A stretch of DNA of 21,366 nucleotides, taken from UHGV virus genome UHGV-2192570; one strand, given 5' to 3'. This document shows, piece by piece, positions 6,001 to 12,000 of this stretch; position 1 is the first letter of the stretch, and each line of letters starts with the position of its first letter. Made by a program: the position numbers. Source of the stretch: a virus.

Positions 6001-9000
6001 GCCCAGCTGCCGCACGCACATCTTATTTTTGTCGCCCGTATCCGTCAGGAGGTGACTCATGCTTAAAACCTTCCGCGTCTTTTCCCGTGCTGTTAACAAG
6101 CGTGGCTATACCGTTGGCATCACGCAGAACGTGAAGGCCGAAAACGTCCAGGCTGCAATCAGCACAGTAATTAACAAATCAGCTAAAGCCGGTTTATCCG
6201 GCGTAATTATCCACGCAGTGACATGTATTCAGGATGAGGAGTAATTCATGTGTAATTTTTCCGATATGACTGTTGATGAAGCAGCAAAAAGCGCAATGCA
6301 GGCAGAACTTATTTGTTCTCTGATGATGGGTAACACAGGTGAAATGACTGAGGGTGAGATTGAGTCATTGCTCGCCCTGATTAAGCAGCTTACAGGTAAG
6401 GCTGGTAGCTGGCTGATTGCGGCATCGGGTGATATGCAATAAGGGAATAAATAACAGGATGAAATAAATACCAGCGAATTAAAGCGTTACATATCAGGAA
6501 ATAAAACGATGAAACGTAAATATTCTGGCTTAACTGCCAGTAGCAAAACTCACCCCGAATTTATGTGCGGGGATACTTATCGCAATGAATACGGTAGCCA
6601 CATGACGATGATCAGCAGAGGTAAGAAATGAAAAGCGCACCGAACTTAAAAAAACAGCCTCGAGGGAAAAAACACGCCGATACGGAAGTGATTATTTTCG
6701 CTGGCAGTGATGCGTGGGCGCACGCGAAACAGTGGCTGGAGCAGGACGGAAAACTTGCCGGAGATAATATACCGCCTGTCGTGCTGGCTGATGAGCAACT
6801 TAAAGATATTGGCAATCTGCAAATTGTACCCGACGGGCGCAAATCAGCGCGGATATACAAGGCCGGACACCTTGATCAGGTGATGGTCAAAGGCATAGGT
6901 CAGAAGCTGGCGGCGGCAGGCGTACAGGACGCAGACTATTACCCCGAAGGTATGCACCATAACGAGCGGCAGAACTGGCGTAACTATCTGGAGACTGAGC
7001 GCAAAAACATTTCTGACGGACTGGTTATTGAGCTGCCTGTAAAGAAAAAAACATCCGAACAATCAGAGGATGAATTAAAACCCCGCGTTGAATGCCGTCC
7101 TGATGGCGTTTACTGGGTTACGCCAAAGGTTGATAAGCAATCAGGCGAAATTATACGGCCTGAAACGTGGTTATGTGCTTCGGTTGAATTACTGGGCGCT
7201 GGTGTCATTGGTAACGAGCATTACCGCGTGATGCGCTGGACAGATTCGACAACAAATCGGCTTGTCACTATGGCCGTGCCTTGCTGCGGAATAGGCGACA
7301 GTGACGGCTGGCGGTTACTGAAAGCCAACGGGCTTAAAGTCACGACAAACGGAAAACACAGGATCCCCCTGGCTGACTGGATGCAGTTAGGCGGACAGCA
7401 TGAGGAATGGCACTTAAGCACGAAAGCTGGCTGGCACTTTGGCGCGTACATCATGCCGGACGGTACGGTTATCGGCGAATCTGACAAGCCCGTTTTGTTT
7501 ACCGGAAAAAGTGCTGCCATTAACGGTTATTCCGTGGCGGGTACGGTGGATAGCTGGCGCGACAGCGTGGCGCGGCTGGCTGGTGGTAATCCGTTCATGA
7601 TGCTGGGCATAGCGACGTCATTATCCGCACCATTAGTCGGGCTGGTCGGTGCTGATGGCTTTGGTGTGCATTTTTTCGAAAACTCCACAGCAGGTAAGAC
7701 CACAACACAAAGCGTGGCATCGAGTTTATGGGGTGATCCTGAAGCGCAGCGATTAACCTGGTACGGAACAGCGTTAGGCATTGCTAACGAGGCTGAAGCA
7801 CACAACCACGGGCTTTTACCACTGGATGAGATAGGACAGGCAGCAAGCGCCCGTGATGTGTACGTATCGGCTTATACGCTGTTTAACGGCTTCGGGAAAT
7901 TACAGGGGGCAAAAGACGGCGGAAACAGGGAGCTGAAAAGCTGGCGCACAGTCGCTATCAGCACCGGAGAAGTGGACATTGAAACATTCCTCAAAACCGA
8001 GGGGATAAAGGTAAAAGTGGGGCAGCTTGTCCGCCTGCTTAACGTGCCAATAGAGAAGGCCACGCAGTTACACGGATACGCGAACGGAAAGGATCACGCA
8101 GATGCATTGAAAGCAGCATGGAAAGAAAACCACGGGGCAGCGGGTCGTGAGTGGGTTAAATGGCTGGCAGCCCACCAGCAGGAGGCAAAGGATACGGTAA
8201 GGGAATGCCGCGAACGGTGGCGCAACCTGATACCGGAGAGCTACGGCGAGCAGGTCCACCGCGTGGGTGAACGTTTCGCCATACTGGAGGCCGCACTTGT
8301 GCTTTCCGGTCATGTAACAGGCTGGGCCGTGCAGGAATGCCGCGACGCGATACTGCACAACTTTAATGCCTGGGTGAAGGTGTTCGGTACGGGGAACAAG
8401 GAGCACAAGCAGATTATTGAACAGGCTGAGGCGTTTCTTGCGGCCTATGGGATGAGCAGGTTTGCCCCTGTCAATTATGACCCCGCCAGTCTGCCAATTC
8501 CTGAACTGTACGGCTACAGGGAAAGCGACGGGCGTTATGACGAACCTGTTTTGTTCTACGTGCTGCCGGATCCGTTCGGCTCACATGTGGCGAATGGATT
8601 TAACAAGGATGCCGTGGCAAAAGTTCTTCATGAAGCCGGAATGCTGAAAAGACCATCCAGCGGTCGTGGGTGGCAAATCAGGACACCACGGCTAAAACAC
8701 CTGAAAGGGGCGCGCCTGAGAGTGTACGGCCTTTTGCTGGCGCAGGACCACGACACGGAAAGCGATTAATCTCGCGTATAGGCGATGAAAAAATGTTGTC
8801 CCAGTTGTCCCACTACGGATTAATTAATTGATTTTACTAAAAATACAATAAAAAAAGTGGGACAACATTACAGCATTTTGGGACGACATCGGGGTATTTT
8901 GGGACGACATAGCGACATTTTGGGACGACACAACGAGCGTTAATTACCCTGGCTGGTAACTGGGACAACATAAAACCCCTCATGTTGTCCCAAAATCGGC

Positions 9001-12000
9001 TAATGTCGTCCCACTTTTCGGAGTGTATTTTTAATTAAATCAATAGATTATGTGTAAGTGGGACAACTGGGACAACTGGGACGACGTGTTTTTGTATATA
9101 TATAAAAAAATAAATTGAGAGGATGAATTCATGAGTGAAATTACTGTTAAAAATATCTCACCTGCGGTAGCTGGCTGGTGGGCGAAGTTCAGAGACGACG
9201 GCACGGAATGGTACAGCCCGATTGCTGCATGGGCGCTTTGTGAGGTCGCCCCCTGTAATACGGGATGTGTGTATCAGGAGATACTACCCGTCTTGCCAGG
9301 TGAAGCAGGCATGGAGCCGCATTATTCTGATTGTGGGGCGTGCGAGTGCCTTTATCTGCCGGACAAGAAGTTTGTTCACTGCGGGGAGTCATGGGTATTT
9401 GCCTGGTATCCGGTTGACGATAACCATCAACGCTAAAACCAGTGAGGTGGACGTATGACAGCACAGATTGCAGCTTACGGGCGGCTGGTGGACGACCCGC
9501 AGGTAAAACAGACCAGCAAGGGTACACCCATGACGCTGGCGCGTATGGCGGTATCTTTGCCATGCAGTCAGGCACAGGACGGACAGGCGACGTTATGGCT
9601 ATCAGTCCTGGCATTTGGTAAGCAGGCCGACGCGCTGGCGAGACATGAAAAAGGTGACCTTATCAGCGTGGCGGGTAACATGCAGATCAGCCAGTGGACC
9701 GGACAGAACGGAGAAATACGGCAGGGCTGGCAGGTTATCGCTGACAGCGTAATCAGTGCCCGTTCGGCGCGTCCTGGCGGGAAGCGGGGGCAACAGGGGA
9801 AGGCGACCGAAGCACTGGAAAGAGCAAAACGACAGACCGGACAGCAGGGAAATCAGCCACCAGCGGGAGGTGATGACCCGTTCTCTGACGATATTCCTTT
9901 CTGAATGACAGGAGCACAACATGAACCAGCAGACCACACAACAGGACCAGACCACACGCAGACCCACGGAGCGCCCATCATGGCGACACATGACGAAGCG
10001 GCAGCGAAAAAACCACAGACGCGTAAACCGACTGGCTGAGTACTGGCCTGAACTGTTTGGGGCAGAGACGATAAAGCCCCTGAAAACGGGCATAATACGT
10101 GATGTGCTTGAGGACGCTAAATCACGGGAATTACCGATTGGTCATGGCGTATTACGTGGCGCATTAACCTCATACATCCACACGACGCGATACCTGAAAG
10201 CCATTGTCGCTGGTGGCCCTCGGTATGGACTGAACGGGCAGCCTTGCGGGGAAGTGACGTCGGATGAAAAAGCCGTAGCCCGTGGGATACTGAAACAGCG
10301 ACTGGAGCAGATGAAGCAGAAAAACATCCAGCAGTAATCAGCCGGAGGTAAAGCCAGTGATAACGGACAGCGTGGCACAGAAACTTGAGGAGCGCGGTTT
10401 ATGGCGACGTGCGGCGACCCGATGGGCTGAGGTTCTTCTTCATGCAGGAACGGACAGGGAACGCGAGGAAGCTGCCAGACGTCGGGCGATATGCATCAGT
10501 AAAACCCGTCGTATGCCTGAACAACTGGTCACCTTTGGCGATGTGAAAAAGGCCGCAGACAGAACGCTGAAAGAGATGGGGATTAATCCACAGGATGAAT
10601 GGAGAAGTTACAGCTTCAGTGATGCAGGCGACGATTTAGCGCTATCGTGATACGCATCTCATCGCCGTATTTGCTCAATTATCGCGATTCGCTATAATCA
10701 CCACCGAAGAGCCGTTGATGGTGTTCGCCTCTGGCAACTGGAGCCAGACTGCATGAAGCCAGTCAGCGGCTTTTCAGCACTCATTTTGATGTGTACTTGT
10801 CACACACATCGGGATGAGTGAATGACGAAAACATCACGGTGATTTCGTCATGCCGCGATAAGAATGTTCCCCTTTGGGCAATTGAAGCCCTCTGTGCAGA
10901 AGGTTATCGCGGTCAGGTTGTGATAAAAACGCGCCTCTTTGAGCAATTGAAGCTCACTGTAAAGCGGCTTATCACAGCAGGCTGTAACGGGCGCTCATCT
11001 TCTGGCAACTGAAGCCACCTGTACAGAGACCCGTTACGGCTGACCCTGAATGATTTCGCCCCGTGCAATTGAAGCACCCAGCGGAGTTATTCAGGGTTTT
11101 TTATTGCCCCTCCACCAGCACCACATCTGTAGCATTGATGCGTATACATTCGCCGTCAATTGCACCATTCCGGCCCTCACCGTCACGCACCACAACAGAA
11201 TGACCAGGCAGGCCATAACGCGCCACCTTTCGACGAACACCATCACCAGCGCCCTCACGACGCTCAAACACATTAATCCGCTCAAGAAGACCATCACGCA
11301 CCATAGCTTCCAGCGTGCGCCTTGTTGATTCGATCTGATACCGGCTGTTGAATGAATCCATACCATGCAGCAGGTAAGCCACACCGGAGACATCAAACGG
11401 CGGGTTGCCAATTTCAACGCTGACCCACGCCAGATTGTCGGGAGTGAAGTAACTGAGGATCTCTTTTTTGTATTGCGTCAGTCTCATAATGGCCTTTCTT
11501 ATTGTAGGATGAGTCCCTCATACAATAAGCCATAAGGCAAATTTTGAAAGGACAGAATCGGCGAGGGCAACAGGTGATACGTGATGACAAGGTTGAAGCG
11601 CTGGAAGCACAAGGGTTATGCGATGGGTTGCGGCAATATGAGGCAAATATGAATATTCAAATTGTTGTGTTGTGAGGTACGCAAGATGAAAAAAATTGAT
11701 TCTTTACGAATAAGTAAAGTAGCTATTATATCAGTATCTTTATTATTTCTTAGCGCGTGTTCTACAAATAATATTGAGAATATGCCGAGAGATGCGCGTG
11801 TAAAATTTGCTCTAATGAGGGCTTATTCAGATAACAAGTTTGATAATTCAACAGTTATCGGCGAAGTGTTAGGATTGAGTTGCGCCAGACAACTTGGAAA
11901 AACATTAGTAACACCATTGCCAGGGGGAAGCGCTATTGCTACATCCTCTGAGGGCGACATTACTTCTGAGTCGGATGCAATACAGGACATGCGATATAAA

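What the first reader, a model, noticed from the sequence alone, without database searches (positions are those of the whole stretch)
8795..9118. Twelve-copy iteron array with 21-bp phasing directly downstream of the replication gene
TGGGACRAC occurs 12 times in 290 bp, with three copies at exactly 21-bp spacing and a TGGGACAAC-TGGGACAAC-TGGGACGAC triplet abutting an AT-rich tract. That is the classic architecture of an iteron origin placed 3' of its initiator, as in the P4 crr and PICI/SaPI ori. A lone TGGGACAC also occurs at 20049-20056.
Basis: partly seen in the sequence, partly recalled or inferred. Interest (0 to 1): 0.5.

Follow-up and report, generated by a model that had tools for sequence, protein, structure and literature searches.

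The report
Replication origin of a phage satellite
The twelve repeats are real and are almost certainly the replication origin of an E. coli phage-inducible chromosomal island, read by the tail of the helicase gene just upstream; this kind of origin is already known, so it is a good but ordinary example.

Summary
TGGGACRAC occurs 12 times in 8795-9085 and nowhere else in the window (0.29 expected). Four copies lie on the minus strand. The layout is two 9-bp-spaced copies (-), a 45-bp AT spacer, four 21-bp-phased copies (+), one (+), two 21-bp-phased copies (-), a second 45-bp AT spacer, three 9-bp-spaced copies (+), then an AT/TATATA tail. The two halves form a 105-nt imperfect inverted repeat.

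The upstream gene (6628-8769) is a homologue, by sequence and by fold, of the SaPIbov1 Rep initiator-helicase. The island (int, int-alpA RNA, AlpA, Rep, SSB, ProQ, PerC, tRNA-Gly attR near 15435) is syntenic with EcCICFT073, whose rep-ori is published as a working replicon.

In 15 related loci the same layout starts 22-32 bp after the rep stop but uses at least nine different 9-mers. Iteron similarity tracks the last ~100 residues of Rep (rho 0.79, Mantel p 1e-4), not the helicase core (rho 0.08) and not the downstream small ORF.

It is a new specificity allele of a known origin type. Binding, melting and replication were not tested here. Interest is modest.

The parts
6628..8769 (+). rep: a 713-aa initiator-helicase of the DUF927 / SaPIbov1-Rep / SCCmec-Cch family. 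It has an N-terminal alpha/beta domain (aa 1-129), the DUF927 region (aa 159-436) with the ATPase core following, and a C-terminal specificity domain (aa ~611-713).
   Evidence: Pfam DUF927 at 5.2e-42. phrog_1139 'DNA primase' at 5e-147. PDB profile hits: 8tch (SaPIbov1 Rep) 8e-19 and 5dgk (Cch) 3e-4. Foldseek on the AF2 model gives 5dgk at 4e-9 and 8tch at 3e-8 as the only hits with E<1e-3. Walker A (G356 K357 T358) and Walker B (D400 E401) are invariant across 65 homologues.
8458..8769 (+). Codons for the Rep C-terminal domain (aa ~611-713). This is the inferred iteron-recognition module.
   Evidence: DNA homology to the EDL933 island stops at 8457 and resumes at 9422. Identity in this segment predicts the iteron sequence (rho 0.79, Mantel p 1e-4). 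Identity in the helicase core does not (rho 0.08). The fold is not established: AF2 pLDDT is below 50 here.
8795..8812 (-). Left outer cluster: two contiguous iterons (9-bp spacing), minus orientation.
8813..8857 (.). AT-rich spacer 1 (45 bp, GC about 12-25%). It contains a perfect IHF consensus AATCAATTAATTA at 8821-8833 (-).
   Evidence: Composition. IHF consensus.
8858..8929 (+). Inner array A: four iterons at exactly 21-bp spacing, plus orientation.
8961..8969 (+). Single central iteron, forming an inverted pair with the copy at 8984 (14-bp gap; 23 bp start to start).
   Evidence: repeat I14.
8984..9013 (-). Inner array B: two iterons 21 bp apart, minus orientation.
9014..9058 (.). AT-rich spacer 2 (45 bp). 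It contains a perfect IHF consensus AATCAATAGATTA at 9038-9050 (+), mirror-symmetric to the one in spacer 1.
9059..9085 (+). Right outer cluster: three contiguous iterons (9-bp spacing), plus orientation.
9086..9130 (+). Conserved AT-rich tail TTTTTGTATATATATAAAAAAA, followed by the ribosome-binding site GAGAGGA (9117-9123) of the next gene. It is a candidate unwinding element and/or a -10 region.
   Evidence: The core TTTTGTATATATA is conserved downstream of the triplet in relatives with unrelated iterons (alignment A3). Sequence read directly.
9455..9904 (+). Island-encoded single-strand DNA-binding protein, part of the same replication module.
   Evidence: Pfam SSB at 3.8e-15. The position is conserved in EcCICFT073, the EDL933 island and others.

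Best explanation
The region 8795-9130 is the vegetative replication origin of an E. coli phage-inducible chromosomal island (a Gram-negative PICI integrated at tRNA-Gly).

Proposed mechanism:
1. After helper-phage induction and excision, the island makes Rep (6628-8769), a hexameric self-loading initiator-helicase of the SaPIbov1-Rep family.
2. The last ~100 residues of Rep recognise the 9-bp iteron TGGGACRAC.
3. Each origin half has a contiguous 9-bp-spaced cluster and a 21-bp-phased array. The 21-bp spacing is two helical turns, so those sites lie on one face of the DNA. The cluster and the array point in opposite directions across a 45-bp AT-rich spacer that carries an IHF consensus.
4. Rep assembles on both sides of a spacer and opens the AT-rich DNA without DnaA. 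Helicase rings then load in opposite orientations for bidirectional replication.
5. The island's own SSB coats the unwound strands.
6. The two halves are inverted copies and may act as two cooperating units.

Shown here:
- the array and its statistics;
- its conserved layout in relatives;
- its co-variation with the Rep C-terminal domain;
- Rep's homology to a characterised initiator;
- synteny with an island whose rep-ori is experimentally validated.

Inferred only:
- physical binding;
- which AT tract melts;
- IHF involvement;
- the double-hexamer geometry.
For: 1. There are 12 perfect copies against 0.29 expected, none elsewhere in the window and none degenerate.

2. Rep belongs to the SaPIbov1 Rep / Cch family by sequence profile (8tch 8e-19) and by fold. 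In SaPIs the Rep C-terminal winged-helix domain binds iterons immediately 3' of rep, in two opposed sets around an AT-rich region (PMC9371898, PMC7581432).

3. The gene order matches EcCICFT073: int, alpA..., DUF4222, rep, ori, small ORF, ssb, perC. For that island, rep+ori maintained a temperature-sensitive plasmid, and deleting rep or ori impaired maintenance. [quoted passage not shown]

4. The layout '-<9>- | ~52-65 | +<11/21>+<21>+<21>+ | + <23-24> -<21>- | ~52-85 | +<9>+<9>+' starts 22-32 bp after the rep stop. It recurs in E. coli, Salmonella, Klebsiella and Pseudomonas, and in partial or shifted form in Symbiopectobacterium and Sodalis. These loci use at least nine different 9-mers, including TGGGACAAG, TGGTACAAC, TGAACCAAC, TGAAACYAC and TAACCCGCA. 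The iteron slots stay in register when the origins are aligned.

5. Natural domain swaps separate the C-terminal domain from the core:
- window vs EDL933: core 86% identical, C-terminal domain 34%, iterons unrelated;
- Sodalis vs EDL933: core 59%, C-terminal domain 62%, iterons 8/9 identical.
Across 105 locus pairs, iteron similarity correlates with C-terminal-domain identity (rho 0.79, Mantel p 1e-4) and not with core identity (rho 0.08, p 0.16).

6. The downstream small ORF does not track the iteron.

7. A 15,995-bp circular K. pneumoniae 'plasmid' is an excised capsid-forming PICI. The DUF927 gene is its only annotated replication gene, and it carries the same array.

8. There is no DnaA box and no GATC in the region, as expected for a self-loading helicase origin.

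9. Perfect IHF consensus sites sit mirror-symmetrically in both spacers (0.03 expected locally). Across 16 origin regions there are 8 hits against 0.55 expected.
Against: - No experiment on this sequence exists. Replication, Rep binding and the melting site are all inferred.
- The C-terminal domain fold could not be established. AF2 gave pLDDT 48 for the domain alone and below 50 for it in the full-length model. A profile of the domain found no solved relative.
- The iteron consensuses and their common register were curated by hand, and the loci were chosen partly by C-terminal-domain cluster. The Mantel p-value is therefore indicative rather than rigorous.
- The experimentally validated EcCICFT073 Rep has a different helicase domain. 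It shares only the N-terminal ~140 aa with this Rep.
- A perfect IHF consensus is present in only 6 of 16 origin regions.
- The DUF4222 gene that precedes rep in relatives is reduced to 40 codons here. This could mean the module is impaired.
Confidence: 0.85

Rival explanations
1. The array is mainly a transcriptional control region: operators around the promoter of the downstream small-ORF, ssb, proQ, perC genes. Rep, acting as an autoregulator, or another island regulator would bind it. It would not be an origin.
For: The right-hand 9-bp triplet abuts a conserved TTTTGTATATATA tract that could serve as an (extended) -10 element. A good ribosome-binding site and an ATG follow at 9117-9133. 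In E. albertii and Ec1117 the right half-array also sits just upstream of further sequence, away from rep.
Against: The promoter scan finds nothing above background on the + strand. Twelve sites over 290 bp with two AT spacers and dyad symmetry is far more than an operator needs. The sites co-vary with the C-terminal domain of a helicase, not with the downstream ORF, which is swapped independently. Dual use as origin plus operator is not excluded and is common for iterons.
Confidence: 0.07
2. The repeats serve copy-number control, incompatibility or partition. They would be handcuffing or centromere-like sites, comparable to P1 incA or R1 parC, rather than the initiation site.
For: The inner 21-bp-phased arrays resemble control or partition iteron arrays (PMC2241845 describes the two repeat sets of parC). 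The two halves can be separated by 2.2 kb in relatives, like P4 ori and crr.
Against: No ParA, ParB, ParM or ParR-like gene was found among the ORFs of the island that were scanned. The binding specificity tracks a helicase-initiator. SaPI and PICI precedent places initiation in exactly this kind of array. A control role for part of the array could coexist with origin function.
Confidence: 0.05
3. The array is a packaging (pac or cos-like) recognition site for a small terminase.
For: Small terminases often bind short repeated sites, and PICIs depend on packaging signals.
Against: No terminase gene was found among the ORFs scanned in 1-15435. The same layout occurs in islands with their own capsid and terminase genes and in islands without them. 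The 9-mer follows the Rep C-terminal domain.
Confidence: 0.02

Closest known systems
Gram-negative PICI replication origins (EcCICFT073 rep-ori; Fillol-Salom et al. 2018, PMC6092414)
   Same: The island type and gene order are the same: int, alpA..., DUF4222, rep, ori, small ORF, ssb, perC. The origin lies immediately 3' of rep. Short iterons lie in opposed sets around AT-rich DNA. Both arrays have 9-bp doublets at the edges, and the copy number is similar (11 GGTAGAB copies in CFT073). The two Rep proteins share the N-terminal ~140 aa.
   Different: The CFT073 Rep carries a different helicase module ('DNA primase family', P4-alpha/D5-like), and its iteron is unrelated (GGTAGAY). Its internal layout differs. 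The window's origin has not been tested experimentally.
SaPI origins and SaPIbov1 Rep (PDB 8tch; Ubeda et al. 2007 as cited in PMC9371898 and PMC7581432)
   Same: Rep is a true homologue (profile E 8e-19; Foldseek probability 1.0). Both origins lie directly downstream of rep and have 6-12 short iterons. Both have at least two iterons pointing in opposite directions on each side of an AT-rich region. The C-terminal domain determines specificity. No DnaA box is present.
   Different: The hosts are Gram-positive. SaPI iterons are 5-6 bp and surround a single AT-rich region. Here the iteron is 9 bp and there are two inverted units, each with its own spacer, plus a third AT-rich tail. This Rep also carries an extra N-terminal domain.
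EcCIEDL933 (capsid-forming PICI) rep-ori
   Same: This is the closest structural twin. It has a DUF927 Rep with an 86% identical core, and the 12-copy layout and the TATATATA tail are the same as in the window.
   Different: The C-terminal domain is only 34% identical and the iteron is TAACCCGCA. That island carries capsid and packaging genes, and the window's island does not.
Satellite phage P4 ori/crr with the alpha protein
   Same: Both are satellites of temperate coliphages. In both, a helicase-initiator binds short repeats through a C-terminal domain, and the repeats lie downstream of its gene. The split arrangement in E. albertii and Ec1117 (halves 2.2 kb apart) recalls P4's two sites, ori and crr. 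The P4 details are from general knowledge plus PMC6092414.
   Different: This Rep has no Pfam match to the P4 alpha-type primase or D5 domains. It matches DUF927 only. The iteron sequence and layout also differ, and in the window the two halves are adjacent.
Iteron plasmids (pSC101, R6K, RK2, F)
   Same: Both have repeated initiator sites next to an AT-rich region, and some of these plasmids have an IHF site in that region.
   Different: Plasmid initiators are winged-helix Rep_3-type proteins with no helicase. They need DnaA boxes and host DnaB loading, and their iterons are about 17-22 bp direct repeats. None of these features is found here.

Membership tests
PICI/SaPI-type Rep-proximal iteron origin | The origin lies immediately 3' of the rep (initiator-helicase) gene. 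| tested here: met
   The first iteron starts 26 bp after the rep stop codon. The offset is 22-32 bp in 15 relatives.
PICI/SaPI-type Rep-proximal iteron origin | Multiple short iterons lie in two sets of opposite orientation flanking an AT-rich region. | tested here: met
   This is met twice: 2(-)|AT 45 bp|4(+) and 2(-)|AT 45 bp|3(+).
PICI/SaPI-type Rep-proximal iteron origin | The adjacent protein is a Rep-type self-loading helicase. | tested here: met
   DUF927 at 5e-42. SaPIbov1 Rep (8tch) at 8e-19 by profile. Foldseek top hits are 5dgk and 8tch. Walker A and B motifs are invariant. Helicase activity itself was not tested.
PICI/SaPI-type Rep-proximal iteron origin | The Rep C-terminal domain specifies the cognate iteron. 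| tested here: met
   The evidence is indirect. Iteron similarity tracks C-terminal-domain identity (rho 0.79, Mantel p 1e-4) and not core identity (rho 0.08). Natural domain swaps show the same. The winged-helix fold was not confirmed because the AF2 models had low confidence there.
PICI/SaPI-type Rep-proximal iteron origin | rep plus ori is sufficient for autonomous replication. | not testable with these tools
   This has been shown only for the related EcCICFT073 (PMC6092414). Supporting observation: an excised circular relative was deposited as a plasmid.
Gram-negative PICI (island) | The island has int followed by alpA, unidirectional transcription, a rep-ori module and a specific att site. 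| tested here: met
   int is at 1-1254, int-alpA RNA at 1299-1366 and AlpA at 2320-2523. rep, ori, ssb and perC are all on the + strand. attR is a copy of the tRNA-Gly 3' end at 15417-15435.
Gram-negative PICI (island) | A helper phage induces and packages the island. | not testable with these tools
   No packaging or capsid-redirection gene was recognised within 1-15435, and the helper is unknown.
P4 ori/crr with the alpha protein | The initiator is a P4-alpha-type primase plus SF3 (D5-like) helicase. | tested here: not met
   Pfam finds only DUF927, and the structural matches are Cch and SaPIbov1 Rep.
Classical iteron plasmid origin | A Rep_3-type non-helicase initiator, DnaA boxes, and about 17-22 bp direct repeats. 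| tested here: not met
   There is no DnaA box within one mismatch of consensus, the iterons are 9 bp in mixed orientation, and the initiator is a helicase.

The most novel reading that the evidence does not exclude
The origin may not be one 'two sets around an AT tract' unit. It may be two inverted, separable SaPI-like units, each with its own IHF-bent AT spacer, that cooperate by looping in a P4 ori/crr-like way. In E. albertii and E. coli Ec1117 the two units work 2.2 kb apart, with ssb, proQ and perC between them. Separately, the Rep C-terminal ~100 residues plus the array may form an exchangeable cassette. Its recognition code (for example WQIRTPRLKHL with TGGGAC, YQQKSPRI with TGAACC, and RYKKKAL with TAACCC) would define many replication-specificity groups among enterobacterial satellites.
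Probability: 0.3. Interest if true: 0.45.

Novelty: new member of a known kind. Interest (0 to 1): 0.3.

Why it matters
The finding correctly places the origin of a widespread class of E. coli phage satellites. That is useful for annotation, for building satellite-derived vectors, and for predicting which satellites can coexist.

The comparative result gives a ready set of natural protein-DNA specificity pairs for SaPIbov1-type self-loading helicases. The layout is fixed, the 9-mer is swapped, and only the last ~100 residues of Rep change with it. How these helicases recognise and open their origins is still unresolved (PMC9371898).

It does not reveal a new kind of system.

Tried and rejected
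- AF2 of the C-terminal 169 residues with a 24-row alignment gave pLDDT 48. The full-length model gave pLDDT below 50 for residues 587-658 and 692-713. No fold claim is made for the specificity domain, and no domain-level fold search was run.
- A profile of the C-terminal domain found no solved relative in the PDB. The best E-value was 0.3, to unrelated decarboxylases.
- A literature search for the 9-mer returned only primers and unrelated text. The supplements of PMC6092414 hold no iteron sequences. I therefore could not tell whether this exact iteron appears in that paper's Fig. 2a.
- The sigma-70 promoter and terminator scan of 8600-9300 found nothing above background.
- Rfam found nothing in the array.
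- DnaA boxes and GATC sites are absent.
- The idea that the small ORF after the array is the iteron binder was rejected. L009 and L010 have near-identical small proteins but unrelated iterons. L011 and L015 share an iteron but have unrelated small ORFs. Several loci lack the ORF altogether.
- The TGGGACAC at 20049 was rejected as chance.
- The first genome scan gave only 5 loci because the peptide patterns were strict. Further loci came from E. coli genomes and from contig look-ups.

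
Full report
**1. The observation**

TGGGACRAC matches 12 times in the window, all between 8795 and 9085. The expectation for the whole window is 0.29, and no shuffle reached 12. All 12 copies are perfect. No one- or two-mismatch copy lies in 8770-9130, and only two one-mismatch copies exist elsewhere in 21 kb.

The order of copies is:
- 8795(-) and 8804(-);
- a 45-bp AT-rich spacer;
- 8858(+), 8879(+), 8900(+) and 8921(+), at exactly 21 bp;
- 8961(+);
- 8984(-) and 9005(-), 21 bp apart;
- a second 45-bp AT-rich spacer;
- 9059(+), 9068(+) and 9077(+), at 9 bp;
- an AT/TATATA tail, then the ribosome-binding site and ATG of the next gene (9131).

The two halves are inverted copies: arms 8795-8899 and 8972-9076 are 77% complementary. 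GC falls to 12.5% at 8820-8859 and to 22.5% at 9020-9059 and 9080-9139. The extra TGGGACAC at 20049 is chance.

**2. The genomic context**

The window carries these features on the + strand:
- a tyrosine integrase (1-1254);
- the int-alpA RNA (1299-1366);
- AlpA (2320-2523);
- Rha and AntA antirepressor-like genes;
- a 713-aa DUF927 protein (6628-8769);
- the array;
- a 101-aa ORF;
- SSB (9455-9904), ProQ/FinO, PerC and a Q-type antiterminator.

Homology to a related island at tRNA-Gly in E. coli 2015C-3121 ends at 15432. There the window carries a copy of the tRNA-Gly 3' end, which is attR.

The gene order int, alpA..., DUF4222, rep, ori, small ORF, ssb, perC is that of EcCICFT073 and of the EDL933 island. 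These are the reference Gram-negative PICI and capsid-forming PICI.

**3. The protein next to the array**

The protein matches Pfam DUF927 at 5e-42. A 65-sequence profile matches PDB 8tch at 8e-19 and 5dgk at 3e-4. The full-length AF2 model has mean pLDDT 64, with a confident N-terminal domain and a partly confident core. Foldseek gives exactly three hits with E<1e-3. They are two chains of SCCmec Cch (5dgk) and 8tch, 'Initiation of replication protein with helicase activity encoded by Pathogenicity Island SaPIBov1'. Walker A and B residues are invariant across homologues.

Published work describes SaPI Reps as self-loading helicases. Their C-terminal winged-helix domain binds iterons located immediately downstream of rep. 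Those iterons lie in opposed sets around an AT-rich region, and binding needs no ATP or DnaA (PMC9371898, PMC7581432). [quoted passage not shown] They show that EcCICFT073 rep+ori maintains a temperature-sensitive plasmid (PMC6092414).

**4. Comparative test**

I collected relatives of Rep from several sources: species-representative genomes, complete E. coli genomes, contigs encoding proteins from different C-terminal-domain clusters, and plasmid records.

In every locus a repeat array begins 22-32 bp after the rep stop. In most loci the layout is nearly superimposable on the window's: -<9>-, ~52-65 bp, +<11 or 21>+<21>+<21>+, one (+), <23-24>, -<21>-, ~52-85 bp, +<9>+<9>+.

The 9-mer differs between loci:

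| Loci | Iteron |
|---|---|
| window, L001 | TGGGACRAC |
| E. albertii (L002), Ec1117 (L008) | TGGGACAAG |
| Salmonella (L013) | TGGGAYAAS |
| E. coli (L014) | TGAGACAAC |
| P. lundensis (L003) | TGGTACAAC |
| Klebsiella (L011), a metagenome contig (L015), a Klebsiella 'plasmid' (L016) | TGAACCAAC |
| Symbiopectobacterium (L005, L004) | TGAAACYAC, TGAAACCCA |
| EDL933 (L007), RM13322 (L009) | TAACCCGCA |
| Salmonella (L012) | TAACCCACT |
| Sodalis (L006) | TAACCCGTA |

Aligning nine origins puts the iteron slots in register. It also shows a conserved non-iteron tail, TTTTGTATATATA.

**5. Which protein reads the repeats**

Splitting Rep into segments gives natural domain-swap comparisons:

| Pair | Core (aa 400-600) identity | C-terminal (aa 615-713) identity | Iterons |
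|---|---|---|---|
| window vs EDL933 | 86% | 34% | unrelated |
| Sodalis vs EDL933 | 59% | 62% | 8/9 identical |
| Sodalis vs Symbiopectobacterium | 90% | 34-35% | unrelated |

Over 15 loci (105 pairs), iteron similarity correlates with C-terminal identity (Spearman 0.79, Mantel p 1e-4). It does not correlate with core identity (0.08, p 0.16). The partial correlations are 0.79 and -0.09.

At the DNA level, homology between the window and the EDL933 island stops at 8457 and resumes at 9422. The swapped cassette is therefore the C-terminal domain, the array and the small ORF.

The small ORF itself is excluded as the binder. L009 and L010 have near-identical small proteins but unrelated iterons. 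L011 and L015 share an iteron but have unrelated small ORFs. L002, L008, L013 and L003-5 lack it.

Two caveats apply. The iteron consensuses and their register were set by hand, and the loci were partly chosen by C-terminal cluster.

**6. Extra anatomy**

Both 45-bp spacers contain a perfect IHF consensus in mirror orientation: 8821-8833 (-) and 9038-9050 (+). The window has four such sites in all against 0.95 expected. Shuffles that preserve local composition predict 0.03 for the origin region. Across 16 origin regions there are 8 hits against 0.55 expected, but only 6 regions have one.

There is no DnaA box and no GATC.

In E. albertii and Ec1117 the two halves lie 2166 bp apart, with ssb, proQ and perC between them. 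The halves are therefore separable units.

A finished K. pneumoniae genome lists a 15,995-bp circular 'plasmid' that is an excised capsid-forming PICI. The DUF927 gene is its only annotated replication gene, and the full TGAACCAAC array follows it. This fits an extrachromosomal replicating form.

**7. Mechanism**

The best-supported reading is that Rep binds the 9-mers through its last ~100 residues. It assembles on opposed iteron sets across an AT-rich spacer, possibly bent by IHF, and opens the DNA without DnaA. Rings then load for bidirectional replication, and the island's SSB follows.

The 21-bp phasing places the inner sites on one helical face. The 9-bp contiguous sites are rotated by about 51 degrees per step, which is near the 60-degree subunit step of a hexamer. 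That last point is my inference only.

Binding, the melting site, the role of IHF and the geometry are all untested.

**8. Rival explanations**

A pure operator or promoter role has some support. The conserved TATATATA tract and the ribosome-binding site fit it. It does not explain the size, the symmetry, the AT spacers or the link to a helicase domain, and the promoter scan is at background. Dual use is possible.

A partition or copy-control role is unsupported by gene content, though it could apply to the inner arrays.

A packaging-site role conflicts with two findings. The layout occurs in islands with and without terminase genes, and the 9-mer co-varies with the Rep C-terminal domain.

**9. 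Comparison with known systems and novelty**

This origin is a member of the PICI/SaPI Rep-proximal iteron origin class. Four defining features were tested and met, one of them (C-terminal specificity) only indirectly. The functional feature, autonomous replication, is not testable here.

It is not a P4 ori/crr homologue, because Rep is not alpha-like. It is not a classical iteron-plasmid origin either, because it has no DnaA box, the iterons are 9 bp in mixed orientation, and the initiator is a helicase.

I did not find the TGGGACRAC allele in searchable text. Only 5 of 5,426 complete E. coli genomes carry this exact origin, while the protein family has more than 3,600 members.

**Verdict**

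This is a new specificity variant of a known kind. Interest is modest. It lies mainly in the clean natural data set linking the Rep C-terminal domain to the iteron, and in the two-unit, sometimes split, layout.

Noticed in passing
window 5653-5841 (inside ORF 4033-6066): Rfam finds isrK (5653-5729) and a C4 antisense RNA (5754-5841) inside the 677-aa ORF. That ORF's only Pfam hit (Ash, aa 537-623) covers the same DNA. The long ORF may be spurious or a fusion, and this stretch may be a P1/P7-like c4-icd-ant immunity region.
   Followed up: no
window 1299-1366: An int-alpA RNA (Rfam RF02996, 38.6 bits) lies between the integrase and alpA, as is typical of this island family.
   Followed up: no
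window 15417-15456: This is the island's right end. 'gttcccttcgccgctcca' copies the 3' end of tRNA-Gly (compare L001 6520-6542) minus one C. Homology to the 2015C-3121 island stops at 15432. A perfect IHF consensus follows at 15444-15456.
   Followed up: partly
window 17787-19194 (- strand): Beyond the island lie a lambda-type major capsid protein E gene (17787-18863) and a weak head-decoration-D-like ORF (18811-19194). These belong to a different, adjacent phage-like element.
   Followed up: no
window 6509-6631: In relatives the DUF4222 gene directly precedes rep and overlaps it, and is about 96-100 codons long. Here it is only a 40-codon ORF, which overlaps the rep ATG by 4 nt. It may be truncated.
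   Followed up: partly
window 6628-7049 (Rep aa 1-140): The N-terminal ~140 residues of Rep are shared (about 73% nucleotide identity) with the EcCICFT073 'DNA primase family' Pri-Rep and with 'helicase RepA family' alleles. One N-terminal domain is thus fused to three different helicase types. AF2 predicts a confident alpha/beta fold for it. Its function is unknown.
   Followed up: partly
L002 5160-5300 and 7450-7600; L008 likewise: In E. albertii NBRC 107761 and E. coli Ec1117 the two origin halves are 2166 bp apart, with ssb, proQ and perC between them. This is a split origin reminiscent of P4 ori/crr.
   Followed up: partly
L016 (NZ_CP069874.1, whole record): A K. pneumoniae 'plasmid unnamed2' (15,995 bp, circular) is really an excised capsid-forming PICI. 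It carries int, AlpA, DUF927 Rep, capsid, portal and terminase genes, and has the TGAACCAAC array after rep.
   Followed up: partly
L006 2007-4168: In a Sodalis MAG the rep gene is a frameshifted pseudogene, yet seven TAACCCGT iterons persist downstream.
   Followed up: no
L001 6540-6650: Next to tRNA-Gly (attL side) in E. coli 2015C-3121 there is a run of (C/G/A)TCTAC(C/A) repeats. These are probably integrase arm-type sites.
   Followed up: no
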